Assembly: GCF_036971445.1 (NCBI RefSeq)
Contig: NC_091473.1
Location: forward strand, 28,520,001-28,584,000
Reading direction: 5' to 3'
Origin: Narcine bancroftii
Taxonomy: Eukaryota
DNA length: 64,000 nucleotides
The position numbers were made by a program, and so were the translations under genes. Below the pieces are notes generated by a model. It saw only the letters and a list, made by a program, of their open reading frames with translations, did not search any database and was not told the DNA's origin. This document shows positions 21,906 to 50,785 of the stretch, in pieces. Numbering within the stretch: the first letter of the stretch is position 1; every line of letters starts with the position of its first letter.

Positions 21906-22414
21906 CTGTTGAAATCAAAAGCAAGGATTTTCATGTAGAATTCTATATTTTACTGAAAAGTCCAAATTCCCCAAATTAACTGTAGATTAAATAAAGATAT
22001 GTGCTTTGTAATTTTCATCACACTTCTGTTTATTTGTCACTTGTTCAAAAAGTAGATAACAAACTCAGTTGTCTATTTTTTTTGCACTGGTTACTCAAAT
22101 GATTAACAGTCCTCTTCAAGTTTTTCAGTCAGCTAAAGATGCAAAATTTAATCAGATGCAAATTTCTCTGTGACAGGGATTCAGACTTTTGATCTGTTAT
22201 TTCAAGGCCAGCACTCCTCATAATTATAATGAAAAGCATTATCCAAAAACAAGACTTTTAAAGGCTGATGAATGCACTGCAAAATTCCATCAGACTTGAA
22301 AATGCAAATATTTGGAGAAAGCAAATTATTGTTGGTGATGAGAGTAAGCTAATAACAGTGTAGTTACTGTCACATGTAAAAGGTATCACCTTCATCAACT
22401 GCAGAAGTATTAGG

Positions 22415-23488
22415 ATCGCCCACTATTTGTTGACAGTTGTCGACCGCACGACGAGGTGGCTGGAATCCATTCCCCTGAGAGATATTTCCTCTGACACCTG
22501 CACCAGAAACCTACTCGCCCATTGGATCGCCATGTTCGGGGTCCCAGCACACATGACGAGCAACAGGGAAGCCCAGTTCACATCCCCACTCTGGTCACAG
22601 CTGGAAAACCTCTTGGGGATCAAACTCCATCACACCACCGCATACCATCCCCAAACCTATGGCCTAGTGGAGCGCTTCCACCAGCATCTAAAGTCAGCCC
22701 TCATGGCTCACCTCACCGGTCCCATCTGGACGGATGAATTGCCCTGGGTCCTGCTCGGCATCAGAATGGCTCCGAAAGACCTACAGGTATCGTATGCGGA
22801 GTTGGTCTATGGTGCGCTGCTGTCACTACCTGGGGAATTCTTCAGCCCAAGCACTGGTTCCATGACCAAGAATCAGACCATGCTGTCAGACTTGTGGGGT
22901 AAGCTCACCTCACTAGCACCCCCACCTCCGACCTACCACAGCAGCCGCCCGTCCTGCATCCCCAAGGAGCTGCCCATGGTTGATTTCGTTTTCATCCAGC
23001 GAGGTCCACACACTGTGTCCCTGCAGCGCCCCAACAAACAAAGTCTTGCAATGCTCAGGCAAGACGTTCACCTTGGACACCAGGGGCAAGGGGGGTTATA
23101 CACAGTCAACTGACTCAAGGCGGCACACTTGGACCTTAGCCGGCCGGTAGTGACGGGCCGGCCAAAACGACGAGGCTGGCCGTGCAGGCGGAGATACGCG
23201 TGAGTCTGTTCGGGGGGTTGGGGGTTGTGTGGCAGCGCACATCCTCATGGCGAACTGGCCCCGATTGTACCGCCGCACCAGCGGGGCAGATGCGAGATGA
23301 TGGCGCCGTCAGGGGACCTCTGTGCCTCGTGGGTTAGAACAAGGCACAAGCCTTGGGTGAGCATGTTGATGTCACCGCTGACATGGGGACAAAGCTAACG
23401 CTGCCCTTAAAGGGGCGCGCGTGAAGTTTGAATAAACAGTTCGTTTGAAACCCAAACATGGTCATGGTGTGTTTCAATCTGTGTATCA
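22415..23488 (+). mobile_element. Gypsy LTR retrotransposon fragment: integrase core, PPT and partial 3' LTR
   Basis: ORF 22427-23113 with LTVVDRTTRW, HHTTAYHPQTYGLVERFH, WTDELPWVLLGIR; G-rich PPT ~23212-23227; LTR starts TGTGGC at 23228 and contains AATAAA. Confidence 0.9.
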
Positions 23489-24210: not shown

Positions 24211-26694
24211 CTTTGGCTTGGCTTCGCGGACGAAGATTTATGGAAGGGGTAAATGTCCACGTCAGCTGCAGGCTCGTTTGTGGCTGACAAGTCCAATGCG
24301 GGACAGGCAGACACGGTTGCAGCGGTTTCAGGGGAAAATTGGTTGGTTGGGGTTGGGTGTTGGGTTTTTCCTCCTTTGTCTTTTGTCAGTGAGGTGGGCT
24401 CTGCGGTCTTCTTCAAAGGAGGTTGCTGCCCGCCGAACTGTGAGGCGCCAAGATGTATGGTTTGAGGCGATATCAGCCCACTGGCGGTGGTCAATGTGGC
24501 AGGCACCAAGAGATTTCTTTAGGCAGTCCTTGTACCTCTTCTTTGGTGCACCTCTGTCACGATGGCCAGTGGAGAGCTCGCCATATAACATGATCTTGGG
24601 AAGGCGATGGTCCTCCATTCTGGAGACGTGACCCACCCAGCGCAGCTGGATCTTCAGCAGCGTGGACTCGATGCTGTCGGCCTCTGCCATCTCAAGTACT
24701 TCGATGTTAGGGATGAAGGCGCTCCAATGAATGTTGAGAATGGAGCGGAGACAACGCTGGTGGAAGCGTTCTAGGAGCCGTAGGTGATGCCGGTAGAGGA
24801 CCCATGATTCGGAGCCGAACAGGAGTGTGGGTATGACAACGGCTCTGTCTACGCTTATCTTTGTGAGGTTTTTCAGTTGGTTGTTTTTCCAGACTCTTTT
24901 GTGTATTCTTCCAAAGGCACTATTTGCCTTGGCGAGTCTGTTGTCTATCTCGTTGTCGATCCTTGCATCTGATGAAATGGTGCAGCTGAGATAGGCAAAC
25001 TGGTTGACTGCTTTGAGTTTTGTGTGCCCGATGGAGATGTGGGGGGGCTGGTAGTCATGGTGGGGAGCTGGCTGATGGAGGACCTCAGTTTTCTTCAGGC
25101 TGACTTCCAGGCCAAACATTTTGGCAGTTTCCACAAAACAGTACGTCAAGCGCTGAAGAGCTGGCTCTGAATGGGCAACTAAAGCGGCATCGTCTGCAAA
25201 GAGTAGTTCACGGACAAGTTTCTCTTGTGTCTTGGTGTGAGCTTGCAGGCGCCTCAGATTGAAGAGACTGCCATCCGTGCGGTACCGGATGTAAACAGCG
25301 TCTTCATTGTTGAGGTCTTTCATGGCTTGGTTCAGCATCATGCTGAAGAAGATTGAAAAGAGGGTTGGTGCGAGAACACAGCCTTGCTTCACGCCATTGT
25401 TAATGGAGAAGGGTTCAGAGAGCTCATTGCTGTATCTGACCCGACCTTGTTGGTTTTCGTGCAGTTGGATAATCATGTTGAGGAACTTTGGGGGGCATCC
25501 GATGCGCTCTAGTATTTGCCAAAGCCCTTTCCTGCTCACGGTGTCGAAGGCTTTGGTGAGGTCAACAAAGGTGATGTAGAGTCCTTTGTTTTGTTCTCTG
25601 CACTTTTCTTGGAGCTGTCTGAGGGCAAAGACCATGTCAGTAGTTCCTCTGTTTGCGCGAAAGCCGCACTGTGATTCTGGGAGAATATTCTCGGCAACAC
25701 TAGGTATTATTCTATTTAGGAGAATCCTAGCGAAGATTTTGCCTGCAATGGAGAGCAGCGTGATTCCCCTGTAGTTTGAGCAGTCTGATTTCTCGCCTTT
25801 GATTTTGATGATGGCATCACGAAGGTAATGAAGCAGTTTTCCTTGGTCCCAACAAAGCTTGAAAAACTCATGCAGTTTGACACGCAGAGTTTTGCCGCCA
25901 GCCTTCCAGACCTCTGGGGGGGATTCCATCCATACCTGCTGCTTTGCCACTTTTCATTTGTTCAATTGCCTTATATGTCTCATCCCGGGTGAGGACCTCA
26001 TCCAGCTCTAGCCTTAGGGGCTGTTGAGGGAGCTGGAGCAGGGCGGAATCTTGGACTGAGCGGTTGGCACTGAAAAGAGATTGGAAGTGTTCTGACCATT
26101 GGTTGAGGATGGAGATCTTGTTGCTGAGGAGGACTTTGCCGTCTGAGCTGTGCAGCGGGCTTTGGACTTGGGGTGAGGGGCCGTACACAGCCTTTAGAGC
26201 GTCGTAGAAACCCCTGAAGTCGCCAATGTCCGCGCTGAGCTGGGTTCGCTTGGCGAGGCTAGTCCACCACTCATTTTGGATCTCCCGGAGTTTGCGCTGA
26301 AGATGGCTGCATGCGCGACGGAAGGCTTGTTTCTTCTCTGGACAGGACAGCTTTGTAAGGTGAGCCTGCTGGGCAGCTCGCTTCTTTGCCAGCAGCTGCT
26401 GGATTTCCTGGCTGTTATCGTCGAACCAGTCCTTGTTTTTCCTAGAGGAGAAGCCCAGAACCTCTTCAGTGGATTGCAGTATGGTAGTCTTCAGCTGATC
26501 CCAGAGGGTTTCAGGGGACGAGTCCGTGAGGCGGATTGCATCGTCGAGCTTTGCTTTGAGGTTTGCCTGGAAGTTTCCTCTCACTTCGTCTGACTGCAGG
26601 TTTCCAACATTGAACCTCTTTCTGGGGGCTTTACTGTTCCTGGGCTTTGGCTTGAAGTGAAGGTTGAGCTTGCAGCAAACCAGTCGGTGGTCCA
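24211..26694 (-). mobile_element. Young RTE-clade LINE, 5'-truncated, with perfect 20-bp TSD
   Basis: RT ORF (NYRGITLLS, VDLTKAFD, GVKQGCVLAP, LLFADD); TSD GCTGAGCGATTTTTATGGTT at 24191-24210 and 26695-26714. Confidence 0.97.
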
Positions 26695-37358: not shown

Positions 37359-39511
37359 TTTCTTATTTTCTTCTTTGGCTTGGCTCGCGGACGAAGATTT
37401 ATGGAGGGGGTAAAAGTCCACGTCAGCTGCAGGCTCGTTTGTGGCTGACAAGTCCGATGCGGGACAGGCAGACACGGTTGCAGCGGCTGCAGGGAAAAAT
37501 TGGTGGGTTGGGGTTGGGTGTTGGGTTTTTCCTCCTTTGCCTTTTGTCAGTGAGGTGGGCTCTGCGCTCTTCTTCAAAGGAGGTTGCTGCCCACCGAACT
37601 GTGAGGCGCCAAGATGCACGGTGGGAGGCGAGATCAGCCCACTGGCGGTGGTCAATGTGGCAGGCACCAAGAGATTTCTTTAGGCAGTCCTTGTACCTTT
37701 TCTTTGGTGCACCTCTGTCACGGTGGCCAGTGGAGAGCTCGCCATATAACACGATCTTGGGAAGGCGATGGTCCTCCATTCTGGAGACGTGACCCACCCA
37801 GCGCAGCTGGATCTTCAGCAGCGTGGACTCGATGCTGTCGACCTCTGCCATCTCGAGTACTTCGACGTTAGGGATGAAAGCGCTCCAATGGATGTTGAGG
37901 ATGGAGCGGAGACAACGCTGGTGGAAGCGTTCTAGGAGCCGTAGGTGATGCCGGTAGAGGACCCATGATTCGGAGCCGAACAGGAGTGTGGGTATGACAA
38001 CGGCTCTGTATACGCTTATCTTTGTGAGGTTTTTCAGTTGGTTGTTTTTCCAGACTCTTTTGTGTAGTCTTCCAAAGGTGCTATTTGCCTTGGCGAGTCT
38101 GTTGTCTATCTCATTGTCGATCCTTGCATCTGATGAAATGGTGCAGCCGAGATAGGTAAACTGGTTGACCGTTTTGAGTTTTGTGTGCCCGATGGAGATG
38201 TGGGGGGGCTGGTAGTCATGGTGGGGAGCTGGCTGATGGAGGACCTCAGTTTTCTTCAGGCTGACTTCCAGGCCAAACATTTTGGCAGTTTCCGCAAAGC
38301 AGGACGTCAAGCGCTGAAGAGCTGGCTCTGAATGGGCAACTAAAGCGGCATCGTCTGCAAAGAGTAGTTCACGGACAAGTTTCTCTTGTGTCTTGGTGTG
38401 AGCTTGCAGGCGCCTCAGATTGAAGAGACTGCCATCCGTGCGGTACCGGATGTAAACAGCGTCTTCATTGTTGAGGTCTTTCATGGCTTGGTTCAGCATC
38501 ATGCTGAAGAAGATTGAAAAGAGGGTTGGTGCGAGAACACAGCCTTGCTTCACGCCATTGTTAATGGAGAAGGGTTCAGAGAGCTCATTGCTGTATCTGA
38601 CCCGACCTTGTTGGTTTTCGTGCAGTTGGATAATCATGTTGAGGAACTTTGGGGGACATCCGATGCGCTCTAGTATTTGCCAAAGCCCTTTCCTGCTCAC
38701 GGTGTCGAAGGCTTTGGTGAGGTCAACAAGGGTGATGTAGAGTCCTTTGTTTTGTTCTCTGCACTTTTCTTGGAGCTGAGGGCAAAGACCATGTCAGTAG
38801 TTCCTCTGTTTGCGCGAAAGCCGCACTGTGATTCTGGGAGAATATTCTCGGCGACACTAGGTATTATTCTATTTAGTAGAATCCTAGCGAAGATTTTGCC
38901 TGCAATGGAGAGCAGCGTGATTCCCCTGTAGTTTGAGCAGTCTGATTTCTTGCCTTTGTTTTTGCATAGGGAGATGATGGTGGCATCACGAAGGTCCTGA
39001 GGCAGTTTTCCTTGGTCCCAACAAAGCTTGAAAAACTCATGCAGTTTGGCATGCAGAGTTTTGCCGCCAGCCTTCCAGACCTCTGGGGGGGATTCCATCC
39101 ATACCTGCTGCTTTGCCACTTTTCAGTTATTCGATTGCCTTATATGTCTCATCCTGGGTGATGACCTCATCCAGCTCTAGCCTTAGGGGCTGTTGAGGGA
39201 GCTGGAGCAGGGCGGAATCTTGGACTGAGCGGTTGGCACTGAAAAGAGATTGGAAGTGTTCTGACCATCGGTTGAGGATGGAGATCTTGTCGCTGAGGAG
39301 GACTTTGCCGTCTAAGCTGCGCAGCGGGCTTTGGACTTGGGGTGAGGGGCCGTACACAGCCTTTAGAGCCTCGTAGAAACCCCTGAAGTCGCCAATGTCC
39401 GCGCTGAGCTGGGTTCGTTTGGCGAGGCTAGTCCACCACTCATTTTGGATCTCCCGGAGTTTGCGCTGAAGATGGCTGCATGCGCGACGGAAGGCTTGTT
39501 TCTTCTCTGGA
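37359..39511 (-). mobile_element. Young RTE-clade LINE, 5'-truncated, about 530 bp upstream of the GXYLT2 ATG
   Basis: 425-aa RT ORF nearly identical to the 24211-26694 copy; C-terminal CxxC...HxxxC; AAAG-type tail. Confidence 0.96.
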
Positions 39512-40260: not shown

Positions 40261-40672
40261 CTCCTTTGTATTTCCACAGCATTCTCTTGTACAAGTTCAC
40301 TATAAATGGCTGCTTTTCACATACATTGAGTACATACATGACAACACATATGACCCTAAGATTCTTTTGTTTCTGGTGTTCCAACATCTGCCTTTGATAT
40401 TGTGGTGATATGTTTCCTCCCTTGTGTATAGTTATTGTTGGCTACTGTATATATGGAGCTGACCCGCCCACTGATGACTCATACCCTATGACTCCTCCCT
40501 TGTGGTCTTGGGCCATAAAGGTTGAACCACCTCTCGCTTCCCTCCATTCCTATACCTGGATCCGGGCCACCAAGGTTTTGTATATTAAAGCTTATCGTTC
40601 CCTCAACCTAGTCTTGGTGGTTACTGATAGTGCTCTACAATTTAATATACAGAAATTTTTTTTCCTCCGGTA

Positions 40673-41431
40673 ATGGAGAGGCTGCTGCGCCCCGATCGGT
40701 TAGAAGTGGACCCCCCAATCTCCAAGAGCGTCTGAACAGTAAGAGTAGTGGATCAGCTGCTTCTGCAATTTCCTCGAGGCCGCTGCCGAACTGATTGACT
40801 TTGATGAAAAGAAGCTCAAAGTTCTGCAAGCAAGAGTCAGCCAGAGGGCTTTCCAAACCATCAGGAGCAGTGCTATTTACATCGGGCCCTCTACAAACCA
40901 AGGGTCAACAACGTGTACTCACGTTACCTCCTGGCGTCCAGAAAACAGCAGCCTGCTGAGTCGGCAGAAGAATTAATTTGTGCCCTGCTTGTACTGGGGA
41001 GAGACTGTAGGGATAGTTCCACGGCTCCCGTACTGGTGGCCCAGTGCGTCGAAAACCTGGCCTGGGATGCCTGTGTGTCAGGGTTGAGATCTGACTACAT
41101 AAGGCAGTGCCTACTCAAGGAAGACCAGTTGCCACTGAAGTGAGCCATACTGCTGGTAAGGACTCTAGACTCAGCCCAGCATCATGCAGAATTGATCGCG
41201 AGCAAAAGCAGGCCCTCCATGTGTGCGCCAAAAATGCCCCCATCTTGGGAGATGGCCTCGGGGACGGCCGACCCAACCACAGCAGCGGTTGCGATTGAAT
41301 TTCAGAAGTACTACTTCTGCGGGCAGACGAAACACCAGCGACAACTCTGCCTTGCGAGGCATGTTAGTGGCTCCAGCTGCGGAAAAAAGGGACATTATCT
41401 GCAGGTATGTAAGGCCAGAGCCTCCCCATGA
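40673..41431 (+). pseudogene. Decayed gag with tandem Cys/His knuckles
   Basis: Starts MERLLRPDRLEVDP; GLRSDYIRQCLL; YFCGQTKHQRQLC...SCGKKGHYLQVCK; frameshifts and stops. Confidence 0.85.
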
Positions 41432-41679
41432 AGCAGCGCGGCATGTGCAACCGACAAGTCCACACTTCCAGAGCCGACTGTGTGCACGGTGAGAGGAGCA
41501 CCATCTTACCTGCTGCCACCCTCGTCCTCTACATGGACTGCGCAGTCGCAGCCCGCTTTGCTGATGTCACTTCCGCCTTCTTCCTCGACCTTTTCAACCA
41601 TGATCGCGTGGTCAACATGGATGCTGCCATCTTGTGTATTGGGCCTCCCAGTTAATGACGAAGACGACGATCCGATCCT

Positions 41680-42070
41680 GGCATCAATTAAACTGAACCA
41701 GGCCAGCCCTCATTCAATTGCCCACTCCATGATGCAGATCAAGGTGCATGGACAGAGGATGAACTGTCTCTTCGATAGTGACAGTACGGAGAGCTTCATC
41801 CATCCTGAGGTGGTCTGCAGACTCTCGCTCCCAGTCTGACCAATGAGCAGCTCCATCTTGTTGGCAGCAAAAGAGCATAAAGTGGACATTAGTGGGTACT
41901 GTGTGGTGTCTTTGATGGTAGGAGAGGAATGCTACAATAATTTCTCCTTACTGGTCATGCCCCAGCTCTGCGCGCCGATCCTCATAGGCCTTGACTTCCA
42001 GAGCCAGTTTAGGAGTGTGACAATGGTGTTCAGAGGCTCTCAACCGGCCCTCATGGTAAACAACGCACAA
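41680..42070 (+). pseudogene. Decayed retropepsin-type aspartic protease
   Basis: CLFDSDSTESFI (degenerate DSG active site) and LCAPILIGLDFQ; in-frame stop at ~41837. Confidence 0.85.
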
Positions 42071-42094
42071 CTCACGGACCTTGACACCCCCACC

Positions 42095-42455
42095 AAGCGG
42101 CGGCGGCGGAAATGGACATCGGACCCCCCGGCGGCAACAGCGGATCTCAGCCCCCTCCCTGGCAGTGGCAACAACGGACATCACCCCCCCTCCCCCTAGC
42201 AGCGGCAGCGGGCTTTGATCCCCCCTGGCTGCAGCATCAAATCTCGACCATTCCCAGCAGCGGCAGCAATGGACATTGGAAGCACTGGCGGTAGCAGATT
42301 TCGGACCCCCCTGGCGGTGGCACAATGGACATTGGGCCCCCTGGCAGTGGCAGCAGACCTCGGTCCACCACCTCCCCCTGGTTGCGACGGTGGCAGCGGA
42401 TGTCGGCCCTCCGGCACTCTGGTGGCTGTAGCGGTGGACCTTGTCCCCCTGCCGG
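42095..42455 (+). repeat. Degenerate ~30-bp GC-rich minisatellite (GGCRGYGGCAGCGGAYNTCGGNCCCCCC-like), about 11-12 copies
   Basis: Recurring GGCGGC/GGCAGTGGC ... GGACAT/GGACCT ... CCCCC units between protease and DEAF1 segment. Confidence 0.85.
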
Positions 42456-42459
42456 CAAG

Positions 42460-43340
42460 AGCGGAGCCTCGGTGACGAGAGGTTGGTGATGGGGAACAAG
42501 CAGATCGACATGGCCGAACAGTTGTCGAGCGCGGACGAAAGTGGCTCCGCAGGCATGACAGCTGTAACTGAGAGAGGTATGACTGGTGCTACTGATAATG
42601 TTTGTGCAACATCTGTTGCAAATGCTTCCAAATCAGAGCAGGTACAGTCGGGAAAAACCACACTGCGGAATGGAGGAGGTCTCCCCGCAGACAAAGCCAC
42701 ACTGATTATGGCCAAAACAGAGGACAGCATGGTGGAAACAATAGGATTGAAAATGCCCAGTGTACCGATAACTCAAGACCTACGGGCAGTATCAACTCCT
42801 CTGAGACCAGGCCCTGCCAAGGATGGAACCCAGTACAACTGGGATCCATCTGTGTATGGGAACGAGCCCCCAGTCCTTTGCCAAAATGCGAGTGGTATTT
42901 TGCTCAAATACAGTTTGGGTTCTGGAAACAGAGGGCCTTGCATAAAACAGGGAGAGAGCTGGTATACTCCCACCGAGTTGAAGGGATGGCAGGTTGTGCA
43001 AGTAGAAAAGGCTGCAAAAGAAGCATTCGCTATGCTGGCCACCCCTTTCAGGGTCTGATACAAGATGGCATTCTAGAATCCGCAGGCAGCGTCCTGCACC
43101 TGTACTGCCTGCTGTGAAGGCATGTCCCTGACTGAACCAGTCAGACTCTTTGTTCCAAACAAAAGACACAATCATTGAATCATGTACTGTTCCAGAGAAT
43201 AAGGTGTCTCTGAAGAATATCACTCTACGACCTATTGCAAGTGCACCTGTCTTTAACATGACTCCAGGCTGGTAGATCACCCCTCTGAGATACTGGCCTT
43301 CCAGCGAACGCGTACATTAAATGCCGTAGTCATTTTTCCA
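42460..43340 (+). pseudogene. DEAF1: Processed (intronless) DEAF1 fragment including the SAND domain
   Basis: Across frames: [140 protein letters not shown]; collinear with vertebrate DEAF1; frameshifts and stops. Confidence 0.93.
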
Positions 43341-44224
43341 GTTTCAGAGGCTTTCACTAATACCACAGGGGTTGGTACTCACCAGGCTCAGCCGTTTGGG
43401 ACTGGTGGTGGTCAAAGAGGTATGTGTCATTCATGCCGGAGAGCTCAGAACTATCCCATACACTCCTGATCACCCTTCGTTTTCACATCACTCCAACACA
43501 AACAGCACCCTCTCCAAGTAGTCAATTGGTGGCCCCTTATCTAGACTACCAGCCAGCAGAACAGCAGGCCACCTCTATCCCTGCTCCCTGCAGGTCCCGT
43601 AGACAGAGGAGATCACCAGTGCGCCAGATTCGGTTGCCTTGGCAGTTTTTTTTTGTTTGTTTAAATGTTCGAAGACTAAGGGGGGGGGGAGTTCTGTTTT
43701 AAAAGGAGGGGTGAATGTGTCGTGATATGTTTCCTCCATTGTATATAGTTATTGTTGGCTACTGTATATATGGAGCTGGCCCGCCCACTGATGACTCATA
43801 CCCTTTGACTTCTCCCCTGTGGTCTTGGGCCATAAAGGTCAAGCCACCTCTCCTTTCCCTCCATTCCTATACCTGGATCCGGGCCAGCAGGGTTCTTCTG
43901 TATATTAAAGCCTATCATTCCCTCAGCCTAGTCTTGGTGGTTACTGATAGTGCCTTACAGATATCAAGCAAAGTTAATTTGATAATGAACAGAATGGAAA
44001 TATTTTCAAGGCACTGGAGAAAGAAAAAAAAATGGATTTTCAAAACATTACCTCAATTCACCACAGAAATATCAAAGATGTGCAAAGATCAGCAAGTGAT
44101 GTGTTCTTTTCAAAACCCATAAGTGCAAAATGTAGTTTATTCAATATTTTCCTGTTATTCTTATTTTTACTTGAATATCCCCTGCAGCTCATTGATACCA
44201 CATGAAATGTTCACAAGAATGTTA

Positions 44225-45899: not shown

Positions 45900-46820
45900 T
45901 CTTCTCAACACCTTGTTGTCCTTCCGAATCCCTTGCACGCTCCTTCAGATTCAGCGAAGCCTTGGTTAAGAGATGTTCGGCGACCGACAACCGTCAGGAC
46001 GTCGCTTTCAGCACCTTCAAAAGGGAAGGAGAGAAAACCTCGGGGCTCTCGGTCGCCTTTCTCCAGACATTGCGGTGACCGCGTTCGAGCACTGTGACAC
46101 TGAAAGAACCCGCGCGAGGTGCCCAGGGGAAGGCCAACGCCGAGGGGGCGGAACGTTCGGCGGAACGGCGAGGGGGCGGAACGTTCGGCGGAACGGCGAG
46201 GGGGCGGAACGTTCGGCGGAAGGACAAAGGGAAGTGGAATTGCAGGAGGGAACTTTCGGACGGACCACACTGAAGCTGACGGACAGATTGCCGGTTGGTT
46301 CTTTACACGCGGTGACCCTTCTGGCCTGGGTGAACGATCACGTTGATAGAAACTACGACTTCTAAAGGGCGAGTAATGTAGTAAACGGGTTATGTGAGAA
46401 GAGTGTTTTTTTTTTTAACCAACTGCTGGTTTCACTGCGGAAAGGGCATAAAGTGGCAGTATTCACGCGCTTTAAGCTTAAAAGACGCCCGAAAGCACAA
46501 CGCTGCGAATGCTGGAAATTGGAAATGACTTGTGGGATGAAACCCCACCATACGAGGCAGTATCTGTGAGGGCCAAGCAGAGATAATCAGCTTTATTTGG
46601 ATGCTGTTACCACACACACACACAAAAAAAGCCAGACTTCATTAACTTCGGTGTCTCTTGGACGAGCAGAGGCAAGAGTAACTTGTAAGTGTAACTTGTG
46701 ACCGTTTCCTCTGGGTCTCATTTCAAGAGGAAGCACGTGGCTGTTTCCGTGGTGATTTATGACACCGCCGCAAGTGAAATTGAATACTGGCTGTCGCGAA
46801 TCAAGTGGTACCGACAGATG
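45900..46820. promoter_or_regulatory. CpG island / probable promoter with no identified coding exon
   Basis: High CpG density, tandem GC boxes, E-box CACGTG (~46735). Confidence 0.6.
46141..46221. repeat. 28-bp tandem repeat x3 (CGAGGGGGCGGAACGTTCGGCGGAACGG)
   Basis: Units start at 46141, 46169 and 46197. Confidence 0.95.
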
Positions 46821-48195: not shown

Positions 48196-50785
48196 GAAGT
48201 CTGGGCAACATCCTGGTAAATCTTCTTTGAACTTTCTATCTTATTGATATCTTTCTTGCAGTTAGGTGACCAAAGCTGCATCCAATACTTCAAATTTGCC
48301 CTCAACAATGTCTTGTCCAACTTTTCCATAACATCCCAACTTCAATACTCAATATTTTGATTTATGAAGGCCAATGTGCCAAAAATTCTCTTTATGACCC
48401 TATCTACCTGTGAAGCCACTTTCAGGGAATTGTGTATCTGTATCCCCAGATCCCTCTGTTCGACCGCACTCCTCAGTGCTCTATCATTTACTGTGTATAT
48501 CCTTTCCTGGTTTGTCCTTCCAAAATGCAACATCTCACACTTGTCTGCATTGAATTCTATCTGTCACTTTTCAGCCCATTTTTTCCCAGCTAGTTCAGAT
48601 CCCTCTGCAAGCTTTAAAAACTGTCCTTGCTGCCCACAACGCATCAATCTTTGTGTTATCTGCAAACTTGCTGATCCAATTTACCATATTATCATCAAAA
48701 TCATTGATGTAGATGACAAGCAATAGAGGTCCCAGCACCAATCCCTGAGGCACGCCACTAGTCACAGGTCTCCAGTCTGAAAAACAAACATCCACCAACA
48801 CACTCTGAATTCTGCTGCATAGACAATGTTGAATCCAGTTTACTCCATCACCATGAATGCAAAGCATCTGAATCTTTCTGACTAGCTTCCCATGTGGGAC
48901 CTTGTCAAAGGCCTTGCCAAAGTCCACATAGACAACATTCACAGCCTTCATCAACATTCCTGGTAACCTCAAAAAACTCATCAGATTGGTTAAACACGAC
49001 CTACCACACACAATGCCATGTTGACCAGCACTAATCTGCTCTTGACTATCCAAATACTTGTATATCTGATCTGATAGAATGCTTTCCAATAATATTACCT
49101 ACTACTGACATCAAGCTCACCAGCCTATCATTTCCAGGGTTACTTCTTGAGTCCTTATTAAACAATGGAACAACATGAGCTACCCACAATCCTCTACCAC
49201 CTCACCTGTGGCTAAGACATTTTAAATATTTCTACCAGAGCCCCTGCAATTTCTACAATCATCTCCCTGAAGGTCTGAGGGAATAGCTTGTCAGGGCCTA
49301 TGATTTATCCACCCTTATTTGCTTTAAGATAGCAAGCACCCCCTCCTCTTTTATCTGTATCAGTTCCATGACCTCACTGCTTGCTTCTGAGCCCTCACCT
49401 ATCTCTTGGCTCCATACACAGCTGATCATTTTGTTCCTTGCTATCCTTTTGGTCTTAATACACCTGTAGAAACCCTTAGGATTTTCCTGCATATTCTCTA
49501 CCAAAGCAAACTTGTGTCTTTTAGCCTTCCTAATTTGTTTCTTGAAGGTTTTCTTGCACTTTTTTTTACACTTCTCAAGAACCTTATTTGCTCCATGTTG
49601 CTTATATCTATTACATACCTTTCGAACCAGATCCACAGTGTCCCTCGAAAACCAAGGTTCCCTATGCCTGTTAACTTTGCTTTTAATCTTGACATCTGCA
49701 CACTCAAAATTTCACCTTTGAAGGTGATATGCCTTGCATATCCTTGCCAGAAAACAACTTATCCCAGTCAATGCATTCAAGGTCTTTTCTCATTTCCTCG
49801 ATATTGGCCTTTCTCCATTTTAGAATCTTAACCTGAGGTGCAGACCTATCCTTCATAATTAACTTGAAATTAATGGTATTATGATCACTGGACCAAAAAT
49901 GTTCCCCTGCACATACCTCCGTCACCTGTCCTGTCTCATTCCCTAGTATTGCACTCTCTCTAGTTGGTACCTATCTATATTGATTTAGAAAACTTTCCTG
50001 AATATATTTGATAAACTCCAATCCATCCAGCCCTTTTACAGTGTGGGAATCCCAGTCAACATGGGGAAGGTTAAAATCTACTATCATAACTTTGTTTCCT
50101 GCAGCTGTCTGCTGTCTCTCTACAGATTTGCTCCTTCAATTCTCGCTTATTATTGGGTGGTCGTTAATACAGCCCCTTGAGTGTGGTCATACCTTTCCTG
50201 TTCTTCAGCAGACAAACCCTCTGGTCTGACCTGCCTGAGCATAGCTGTGTTACTGTGATATTTTCCCTGATGAGTAATGGCACTCCTCCATCTTCATTCC
50301 CCCTGCTCTATTGCATCTGAAACAATGCAAGTCTGGAACATTGACTTGTAACCAAGTTTCACTAATAGCCACAATGTCATAATTTCACGTGCCAATTCTC
50401 GCTCTAAGCCCGTTTGCCTTTCCTACAATACTTTTTGCATTGAAATAGATGCACCTGAGAACATTTCCACCACGTACAACCCTTTGACCTCAAGCATTAC
50501 ATGCAATTTTCCCTCCTCTACTCCCCTATCTACTCTGGCACTGTTGTTCCCATCCCGCTGCAATTCTCATTTAAACCCCCCGAAGCAGCACTAGCAAACC
50601 TATCTGCAAGGATATTAGGCCCCCTCCAGTTCAGATGCAAACTTTACTGTCGGAACAGGTCCCACCTTCCTTGGAAGGGAGCCCAATGATCCAGAAACCT
50701 GAAGCCCTCCCTCCTGCATCATGTGTTTAGCCACATTAAGCTGCATTATCTTCATATTTCTAACCTCACTAGTATGTGGCACTAA
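48196..50785 (-). mobile_element. Long decayed CR1 LINE (ORF1 end, endonuclease, RT)
   Basis: SSDHNTI, YVDFGKAFDKVPH, SGVPQGLVLGP, ISKFADNTK, LHFGRTN. Confidence 0.88.

What the first reader, a model, noticed from the sequence alone, without database searches (positions are those of the whole stretch)
40401..43959. Gypsy LTR element whose pol is replaced by a spliced copy of host DEAF1 (SAND domain)
Seen: both LTRs, GATAT TSD, PPT, gag and protease, then about 0.9 kb collinear with DEAF1 in the sense orientation, then a pol-like terminal motif (PAPCRSRRQRRSPVR) before the PPT. No RT, RNaseH or integrase motifs are visible. Known: in vertebrate DEAF1 this stretch spans several exons, so an intronless copy indicates mRNA capture, typically by template switching during reverse transcription; SAND domains bind CpG-containing DNA. 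Inference: the LTRs differ by roughly 20 substitutions in ~240 bp by eye while the DEAF1 part looks heavily diverged, so the chimera may have amplified as a non-autonomous family and may once have encoded a Gag-PR-linker-SAND fusion. The KDWK DNA-binding motif reads KGCK here, so this copy is probably binding-dead.
Basis: partly seen in the sequence, partly recalled or inferred. Interest (0 to 1): 0.9.

Follow-up and report, generated by a model that had tools for sequence, protein, structure and literature searches.

The report
Ray retrotransposon family carrying broken DEAF1
A jumping gene in a ray genome has its copying enzymes replaced by an intron-free piece of the host gene DEAF1 and sits at more than 40 places, but the piece is broken at the same spots in nearly all copies, so it likely rode along as dead cargo while the element likely kept making its own shell protein and likely borrowed the enzymes from intact relatives.

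Summary
Confirmed. A 3.56-kb Ty3/gypsy element (LTRs differ at 20 of 239 bases, GATAT target duplication, purine tract) holds host DEAF1 coding bases 48-996 (exons 1-9, 82% identical, all eight introns missing) where its sisters hold 2.2 kb of RT-RNase H-integrase. At least 43 loci carry it; 28 of 28 that reach the 3' end stop at the same place, so there was one capture and then amplification. The fusion idea fails: 25 of 28 copies share a frameshift inside SAND ahead of KDWK, and shared cargo changes are neutral (omega 0.97). New here: in the younger sub-lineage Gag-protease shows purifying selection (omega 0.23, small counts), and gag trees mix chimeras with pol-bearing sisters (AU p 0.004). 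So the element likely supplied its own Gag and borrowed Pol, recombining with its helper. The family looks self-priming. The mechanism is published (Tan 2016), and this scan already noted the same kind of capture in other sharks and rays (SUDS3, RBM25, 4E-T, MYC, OFD1; unchecked notes); DEAF1 is a new cargo.

The parts
40396..40400 (+). left target-site duplication GATAT
   Evidence: identical to 43960-43964
40401..40639 (+). 5' LTR, TG...CA
40576..40589 (+). LTR-internal stretch complementary to the primer-binding position (predicted self-primer)
40641..40654 (+). primer-binding position, no TGG start; pairs with the LTR-internal stretch at 13-14 of 14 bases in 30 of 39 copies (G-U allowed)
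40673..42067 (+). decayed gag (zinc knuckle near 41378-41410) and aspartyl protease (from about 41735), broken by stops and frameshifts in this copy
   Evidence: tblastn to P0056 33% over 443 positions, E 3e-51
42080..42481 (+). GC-rich degenerate tandem-repeat linker (unit about 30 nt by eye), length 100-540 nt among copies, absent from pol-bearing sisters; holds the 5' switch; origin unexplained
42482..43411 (+). spliced DEAF1 mRNA piece, host coding bases 48-996 (exon 1 part to exon 9 part; codons 16-332), sense orientation; no MYND or coiled-coil part
42977..42979 (+). 1-base deletion at host codon 182 inside SAND, shared by 25 of 28 copies
43007..43018 (+). KDWK position, reads KGCK in the host frame (KGWK in 11, KDWK in 10 of 26 copies read in host frame)
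43409..43411 (+). 3' switch point: TGG shared by host mRNA and pol-bearing sisters
43412..43700 (+). remnant 3' end of integrase and 3' untranslated part; group A copies lack about 57 nt near 43437
43701..43715 (+). polypurine tract
43718..43959 (+). 3' LTR (possibly from 43716)
43960..43964 (+). right target-site duplication GATAT

Best explanation
This is one dead copy of a multi-copy gypsy family in which spliced host DEAF1 sequence stands in place of RT, RNase H and most of integrase, likely captured once by two template switches, and then likely spread as neutral cargo by an element that likely still made its own Gag-protease and likely borrowed Pol from pol-bearing sisters. Steps. (1) Shown: the insert is intron-free DEAF1 exons 1-9 with one shared 3' end. 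(2) Inferred: DEAF1 mRNA was co-packaged in a particle, and reverse transcriptase, moving from the 3' end, jumped from the integrase tail into exon 9 at a TGG shared by both RNAs and jumped back near the end of the protease; the repeat linker grew at that second jump. (3) Shown: two 1-base deletions in base runs are in nearly all copies; inferred: they arose at or soon after capture, so no whole SAND domain was made by the spreading element. (4) Shown: copies have different target duplications and LTR ages, with an older group B and a younger nested group A. (5) Shown statistically, on small counts: group A changes are mostly silent in gag-protease but not in the cargo; inferred: Gag favours its own RNA, so gag stays selected in cis while Pol comes in trans. 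(6) Shown: gag-protease and cargo trees disagree; inferred: chimera and helper RNAs were packaged together and recombined. (7) Predicted: priming is by the element's own RNA, not a tRNA.
For: Nine host exons hit in order, introns of 0.9-10 kb absent. 42 loci mapped plus one truncated; 28 of 42 reach coding base 985-1000, none passes 996, all 28 run on into the pol tail by eye, 21 by a strict motif. Sisters share LTR, gag-protease and tail but carry RT, RNase H, integrase in gypsy order; about 2.2 kb is replaced. Of 15 copies with both LTR ends, 6 have perfect 5-base duplications, all different, and 2 match at 4 of 5. LTR K2P medians: B 0.136 (n 12), A 0.102 (n 10), pol-bearing 0.105 (n 10). 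Deletions: -1 in 25 of 28 at codon 182; -1 in 26 and -2 in 2 of 28 at codon 284; stop at codon 282 in 15 of 15 A and 3 of 12 B. Group-A changes: cargo 39 non-silent to 13 silent (omega 0.97, p 0.60 against private changes), gag-protease 6 to 8 (omega 0.23, p 0.003); gag against cargo p 0.049. None of 22 pol-type copies carries more than 8 of 32 group-A gag markers. In the gag tree chimera L059 nests with pol copies L108 and L116 (support 100), L121 with L129 (100), L104 with L007 (90); holding chimeras together is rejected, AU p 0.004. Same model in PMC5131818 (passages).
Against: The 3' microhomology is only 3 exact bases (about 5% by chance, my own arithmetic) and the 5' switch is hidden by the linker, so template switching is inferred, not shown. 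The gag selection rests on 14 changes; only 40 of 1480 gag candidates and 40 of 3290 LTR candidates were scored, so an unsampled pol-bearing donor of the group-A gag is possible. Silent change in gag (0.034) is half that of the cargo (0.067), not significant (p 0.12). Tree conflict could also come from gene conversion after insertion. Widely shared changes upstream of codon 182 show omega 0.59 (p 0.006 raw), which fades to p 0.063 once likely host-lineage and CpG changes are removed. L104 lacks the SAND deletion. Frames for gag came from natural ORFs of single decayed copies. Nine of 15 copies lack a perfect target duplication.
Confidence: 0.8

Rival explanations
1. The chimera was fully non-coding from the start; the silent bias in its gag-protease was imported by recombination from pol-bearing helpers, and all proteins came in trans.
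For: Recombination with helpers is seen; almost no fixed gag differences separate chimeras from pol copies (0-3 per 200 sites); gag silent divergence is lower than in the cargo.
Against: No pol-type copy among 22 has group-A gag, though they were picked for likeness to a group-A copy; no frameshift in gag-protease is shared across group A, only a 9-base in-frame deletion in 7 of 11, whereas the cargo has several shared frameshifts.
Confidence: 0.25
2. The element made a Gag-PR-linker-DEAF1 fusion whose DEAF1 part (the N-terminal half, up to codon 181) was useful to it, for example by binding host DEAF1 or DNA, and this favoured its spread.
For: No group-wide frameshift or stop upstream of codon 154; omega 0.59 for widely shared upstream changes against 1.52 downstream (p 0.024); the window copy keeps a 208-codon open stretch over that part.
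Against: After filtering, upstream against downstream p 0.38; eight group-A copies share a 7-8-base deletion at codon 161; group A fixed changes in the first half of SAND (L145P, R148L, G165R); KDWK, the zinc motif and the nuclear signal, which PMC4274154 (passages) names as needed for DNA binding, lie beyond the shared frameshift; linker frames are not biased.
Confidence: 0.1
3. A LINE enzyme inserted a DEAF1 processed pseudogene into an existing gypsy copy, or double-strand-break repair patched in the cDNA, and the result then transposed.
For: LINE RT remnants are common in the window; a repair patch could also replace pol.
Against: No poly(A), no own target duplication, the insert ends inside exon 9 of 14 and is in sense, and 2.2 kb of pol is gone.
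Confidence: 0.07
4. The many loci are segmental duplicates or assembly repeats of one insertion.
For: None found.
Against: Different flanks and target duplications, 10 contigs, 70-87% identity to the window copy, different LTR ages.
Confidence: 0.01

Closest known systems
LTR-mediated retrocopies of animals (Tan et al. 2016, PMC5131818; 12 passages seen)
   Same: Intron-free mRNA piece between two discontinuous parts of an LTR element, short shared bases at the switch, no poly(A), further rounds as a non-autonomous element; cases in zebrafish, chicken and mouse.
   Different: Their cases in the passages seen are young with one or a few sites; here at least 43 old loci in nested sub-lineages, with helper copies, recombinants and a selection contrast between gag and cargo.
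Crocodilian ERVs with captured KIT-ligand and nectin3 (PMC4299795; 12 passages seen)
   Same: Vertebrate germline retroelement carrying a host mRNA in several copies; nectin3 replaces a viral gene.
   Different: Those are retroviruses and their cargo is intact and under purifying selection; here a gypsy element lost pol and the cargo is frameshifted and neutral.
TR-GAG elements of plants (as described in PMC8704663; 6 passages seen)
   Same: LTR element that keeps gag, lacks RT and integrase, and moves with a related autonomous partner.
   Different: Here protease is kept too, a host cDNA fills the gap, and the host is a vertebrate.
Replication-defective transducing retroviruses such as MC29 gag-myc, and maize Bs1 (both recalled, no call)
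   Same: gag kept, pol replaced by host cDNA, helper needed.
   Different: There the captured part is translated in frame; here the key domain is split by a founder frameshift.
Self-priming Tf1/sushi-type gypsy elements (PMC6317226, 8 passages; PMC5006619, 2 passages)
   Same: No TGG after the 5' LTR; at least 10 bases there are complementary to a stretch inside the LTR.
   Different: No chromodomain hit in the 3' ORFs scanned or in the Pfam lists of 120 pol relatives; clade not placed by an RT tree.
Earlier notes of this scan: shark and ray gypsy families with SUDS3, RBM25, 4E-T, MYC, OFD1 (unchecked AI notes)
   Same: Same layout and amplification in other cartilaginous fish genomes.
   Different: DEAF1 was met in no note; no note held all my words on gag selection, recombination and self-priming.

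Membership tests
Ty3/gypsy LTR retrotransposon | Two LTRs TG...CA, 4-6 base target duplication, polypurine tract | tested here: met
Ty3/gypsy LTR retrotransposon | gag with zinc knuckle followed by aspartyl protease | tested here: met
   weak in this copy; firmer in sisters and by tblastn
Ty3/gypsy LTR retrotransposon | pol order protease-RT-RNase H-integrase | tested here: met
   met in the pol-bearing sisters; this copy keeps only the two ends of pol
Ty3/gypsy LTR retrotransposon | Placement by RT phylogeny | not tested
   only a homolog list: sharks and rays 61-66%, cnidarians about 52%
LTR-mediated retrocopy (Tan 2016) | Intron-free host mRNA piece | tested here: met
   8 of 8 introns absent
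LTR-mediated retrocopy (Tan 2016) | Flanked by discontinuous parts of one LTR element, no poly(A) or own target duplication | tested here: met
LTR-mediated retrocopy (Tan 2016) | Short shared sequence at both switch points | tested here: inconclusive
   3' side 3 exact bases; 5' side hidden by the linker
LTR-mediated retrocopy (Tan 2016) | Further transposition as a non-autonomous element | tested here: met
LINE-made processed pseudogene | Reaches the mRNA 3' end, poly(A) tail, own target duplication | tested here: not met
   ends in exon 9 of 14; no copy passes base 996
Functional SAND/DEAF1 protein | Whole SAND domain with KDWK in one frame | tested here: not met
Functional SAND/DEAF1 protein | Purifying selection on the coding sequence | tested here: not met
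   omega 0.77-0.97 for shared changes; weak upstream signal not significant after filtering
TR-GAG-like gag-keeping element | gag kept coding while RT and integrase are lost | tested here: met
   omega 0.23 on 14 changes, no shared gag frameshift; small counts
TR-GAG-like gag-keeping element | Gag protein actually made and packaging its own RNA | not testable with these tools
   all copies are decayed
Tf1/sushi chromovirus | Self-priming complementarity | tested here: met
Tf1/sushi chromovirus | Chromodomain at the integrase end | tested here: not met
   no hit

The most novel reading that the evidence does not exclude
Gypsy elements of sharks and rays form helper-dependent vectors that keep Gag-protease under selection and swap pol for host regulator mRNAs, and in this one the N-terminal half of DEAF1 was translated behind the protease in the early lineage and acted on host DEAF1, or chimeric transcripts still tune the host gene; that would be a germline retrotransposon using a stolen piece of a CpG-reading repressor, as transducing retroviruses use oncogenes.
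Probability: 0.1. Interest if true: 0.8.

Novelty: new member of a known kind. Interest (0 to 1): 0.45.

Why it matters
It is a clean fossil record of retrovirus-style gene capture in a vertebrate germline: donor gene, helper family, junction, founder breaks, sub-lineages and recombinants all lie in one genome. The contrast of selected gag against neutral cargo gives a natural test of how non-autonomous elements stay mobile (own Gag, borrowed Pol). It also warns annotators that dozens of DEAF1-like and SAND hits in this genome are transposon cargo. It is not evidence of a new functional protein.

Tried and rejected
PDB sequence search gave only weak SP100/SP140 hits. Tandem Repeats Finder found no array in the linker at score 30. 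Linker from the host 5' region: mean local score 23.5 against 21.6 for resampled controls, 10 of 100 as high, not supported; an exact 24-base linker motif occurs twice in the genome, both in chimeras. Frame of the protease-to-DEAF1 join: uninformative. Other cargo in this genome: the Sds3 family search rang nowhere, controls included, so it says nothing; none of the other LTR, tail or gag loci examined showed a different cargo, a small sample. Expression: no RNA holder listed; three runs guessed to be RNA hold contigs that cross the DEAF1-pol junction and differ from the window copy at 60-75 letters, one spanning all 561 bases of L013, but run type is a guess and no silent control was laid, so this is inconclusive. 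The right flank has no cover in organism B, which proves nothing. The strongest SAND hit, on C5, is another gene, not a DEAF1 copy. Literature: DEAF1 plus retrotransposon gave 17 papers, 16 listed, none on capture by title or abstract start; cartilaginous fish terms gave 11 papers, 9 listed, none; supplied comparisons. Subscription papers, Repbase entries and supplements were not seen and may already list this family.
Full report
Setting. The window is G000:C11:28520001-28584000 of a 3.33-Gb genome. The host DEAF1 gene on C1 encodes P0001 letter for letter in 14 exons with GT or GC donors; the source label of P0001 is Narcine bancroftii, an electric ray. The rest of the window holds other retroelement remnants; none of the 13 other ORFs of 150 codons or more that I scanned hit a host gene family.

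LTRs at 40401-40639 and 43718-43959 differ at 20 of 239 bases (K2P 0.090), GATAT flanks both ends, and a purine tract precedes the 3' LTR. Zinc knuckle and protease hits are weak in this copy and firmer in sisters. Window 42482-43411 matches nine separate host exons over 45 kb in order and aligns without a break to the spliced coding sequence, bases 48-996, at 82%. All eight introns (0.9-10 kb) are missing. The piece covers codons 16-332: SAND and the region after it, not the coiled coil or MYND. A protein search with whole P0001 found the C-terminal part only at the host locus (a strict first look, 75 of 140 candidates scored).

It is a family with one origin. The insert search gave 49 matches from 40 of 51 candidates, the junction search 43 from 37 of 37. 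I mapped 42 loci and found one more cut short. Of the 42, 28 reach coding base 985-1000; none passes 996 and all 28 run into the same pol tail by eye, 21 by a strict motif; 28 start at or before base 70, the earliest at 42. Of 15 copies with both LTR ends, 6 have perfect and mutually different 5-base duplications, 2 match at 4 of 5, and 7 match at 3 or fewer. The cargo tree of 37 copies plus host (5 short ones left out) puts the host 0.014 from the root and nests a well-supported group A, with the window copy, inside an older group B. LTR ages agree: median K2P 0.136 for B (n 12), 0.102 for A (n 10). At 30 of 34 informative sites where P0001 differs from the Mobula-labelled P0002 the P0001 residue outnumbers the other among copies, so the capture came after those lineages split. 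A run of a second coded organism, guessed to be DNA, holds contigs that bridge DEAF1 exon junctions (records 7 and 8) and two that cross the DEAF1-pol junction with 26 and 30 bases on the short side, just under the tool's bar of 31; this hints that the family is shared with a related species. I give no age in years, as no rate was measured.

The helper is there. Of 20 further loci picked by LTR and leader, those that are complete and lack DEAF1 share the LTR, gag-protease and the last 0.47 kb but hold about 2.2 kb with RT, RNase H, integrase zinc finger and core in gypsy order. Their LTR ages (median 0.105, n 10, biased by how they were picked) overlap those of the chimeras. All examined are decayed. 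At the 3' switch host mRNA and sisters share TGG; three exact bases arise by chance about 5% of the time (my arithmetic), so this is modest support. The 5' switch lies at the protease end and is followed by a GC-rich repeat linker of 100-540 bases found only in chimeras; its last 30 bases resemble host exon 1 by eye, but the rest did not beat controls and stays unexplained.

The cargo was broken early and drifted. Length across host codon 182, inside SAND and ten codons before KDWK, is -1 in 25 of 28 copies, -9 and -12 in two, and unchanged only in L104, a truncated copy; across codon 284 it is -1 in 26 and -2 in 2 of 28. Both are losses in base runs, as slippage would give (inference). Group A adds a 1-base insertion at codon 214 and a stop at 282 (15 of 15) and turns KDWK to KGWK. 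Outside CpG sites private changes run 475 non-silent to 144 silent, group-A shared ones 41 to 17 (p 0.33); a second tally gives 39 to 13, omega 0.97. Against this reading: widely shared changes upstream of codon 182 give omega 0.59 (p 0.006; downstream 1.52). That class includes changes on the host line; with these and CpG reversals removed, p is 0.063 and upstream against downstream 0.38, and eight group-A copies share a 7-8-base deletion at codon 161. PMC4274154 (passages) ties DNA binding to KDWK plus the adjacent zinc motif and nuclear signal, all beyond the shared frameshift. A working Gag-PR-SAND fusion is therefore not supported; a translated N-terminal stub in the earliest copies is not excluded.

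Gag-protease behaved differently. Group-A diagnostic sites are 1-7 per 200 bases in gag-protease and 10-19 per 200 in the cargo. They split 6 non-silent to 8 silent in gag-protease (omega 0.23, p 0.003 against private changes) and 39 to 13 in the cargo; the non-silent rate differs at p 2e-9, the silent rate does not (p 0.12). Changes shared by three or more chimeras and no pol copy give omega 0.61 (p 0.036) in gag-protease and 0.86 (p 0.16) in the cargo. No frameshift in gag-protease is shared across group A, only a 9-base deletion in 7 of 11. To ask whether group-A gag came from a helper I searched with it (40 of 1480 candidates scored): none of 22 pol-type copies has more than 8 of 32 markers, while 8 of 11 group-A copies carry half or more of those they cover (markers were defined on these copies). 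So the spreading chimera likely had to make its own Gag-protease, as plant TR-GAG elements keep gag (PMC8704663, passages). Counts are small and frames came from natural ORFs of decayed copies.

Chimera and helper recombined. In the gag-protease tree of 40 copies, chimera L059 sits with pol-bearing L108 and L116 (support 100), group-A L121 with group-B L129 (100), and L104 inside group A (90). Forcing the 27 chimeras into one clade is rejected (AU p 0.004, quick tree). Co-packaging with template switching explains this and is what borrowing Pol predicts; conversion after insertion is not excluded.

Priming. The bases after the 5' LTR do not start with TGG; they pair with a stretch 50-64 bases inside the LTR end at 13-14 of 14 positions in 30 of 39 copies, and the region folds so (z -2.6, 3 of 200 shuffles). 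By eye three copies change both sides together and three change one side only. This meets the working definition of self-priming used in PMC6317226 (passages) and described in PMC5006619 (passages). No chromodomain was seen, so I do not file it under Tf1/sushi.

Known or new. Tan et al. 2016 (PMC5131818, passages) describe this chimera type in animals, including fish, and further non-autonomous rounds; crocodilian ERVs carry host mRNAs in several copies with selected cargo (PMC4299795, passages). My searches found no paper on a DEAF1 capture, within an open-access library only. Earlier notes of this scan report the same layout in other shark and ray genomes with SUDS3, RBM25, 4E-T, MYC and OFD1; I did not verify them, and they lower surprise but suggest a recurring habit of these elements. 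DEAF1 appears in none. Verdict: a real and well-documented new member of a known kind; its extra value is the selected-gag, neutral-cargo contrast and the recombination with helpers. Interest 0.45.

Noticed in passing
L051:4553-5290 (G000:C5, minus strand): Strongest SAND hit of the genome search (E 1e-20), with KDWK intact in a 246-codon open frame; no DNA match to DEAF1 or the element. It looks like SAMD11 (recalled, not checked).
   Followed up: partly
L104 (G000:C9:186.04 Mb): Only copy without the codon-182 deletion; basal in the cargo tree but with 14 of 32 group-A gag markers. Could be an early side branch or a recombinant with host mRNA. It is truncated and interrupted.
   Followed up: partly
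L132 (G000:C8:32.15 Mb): Lacks a 12-base deletion in the cargo and another in the pol tail that most other copies share; looks like the earliest surviving layout.
   Followed up: partly
window 22364-23110, 24331-25953, 37426-38793, 48598-49098: Other retroelement remnants: an integrase core and three RT pieces.
   Followed up: no
window 46136-46231: Near-perfect GC-rich tandem repeat with a 28-base period.
   Followed up: no
L052 and L053 (G000:C17:153.14 Mb, C15:5.06 Mb): Two further SAND genes split by introns, no match to the element; probably GMEB-type genes (recalled, not checked).
   Followed up: no
P0049-P0058: Pol relatives at 61-66% identity, mostly labelled as other rays and sharks, and about 52% in cnidarians; they may be the lineage behind the other captures noted by the scan.
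   Followed up: no
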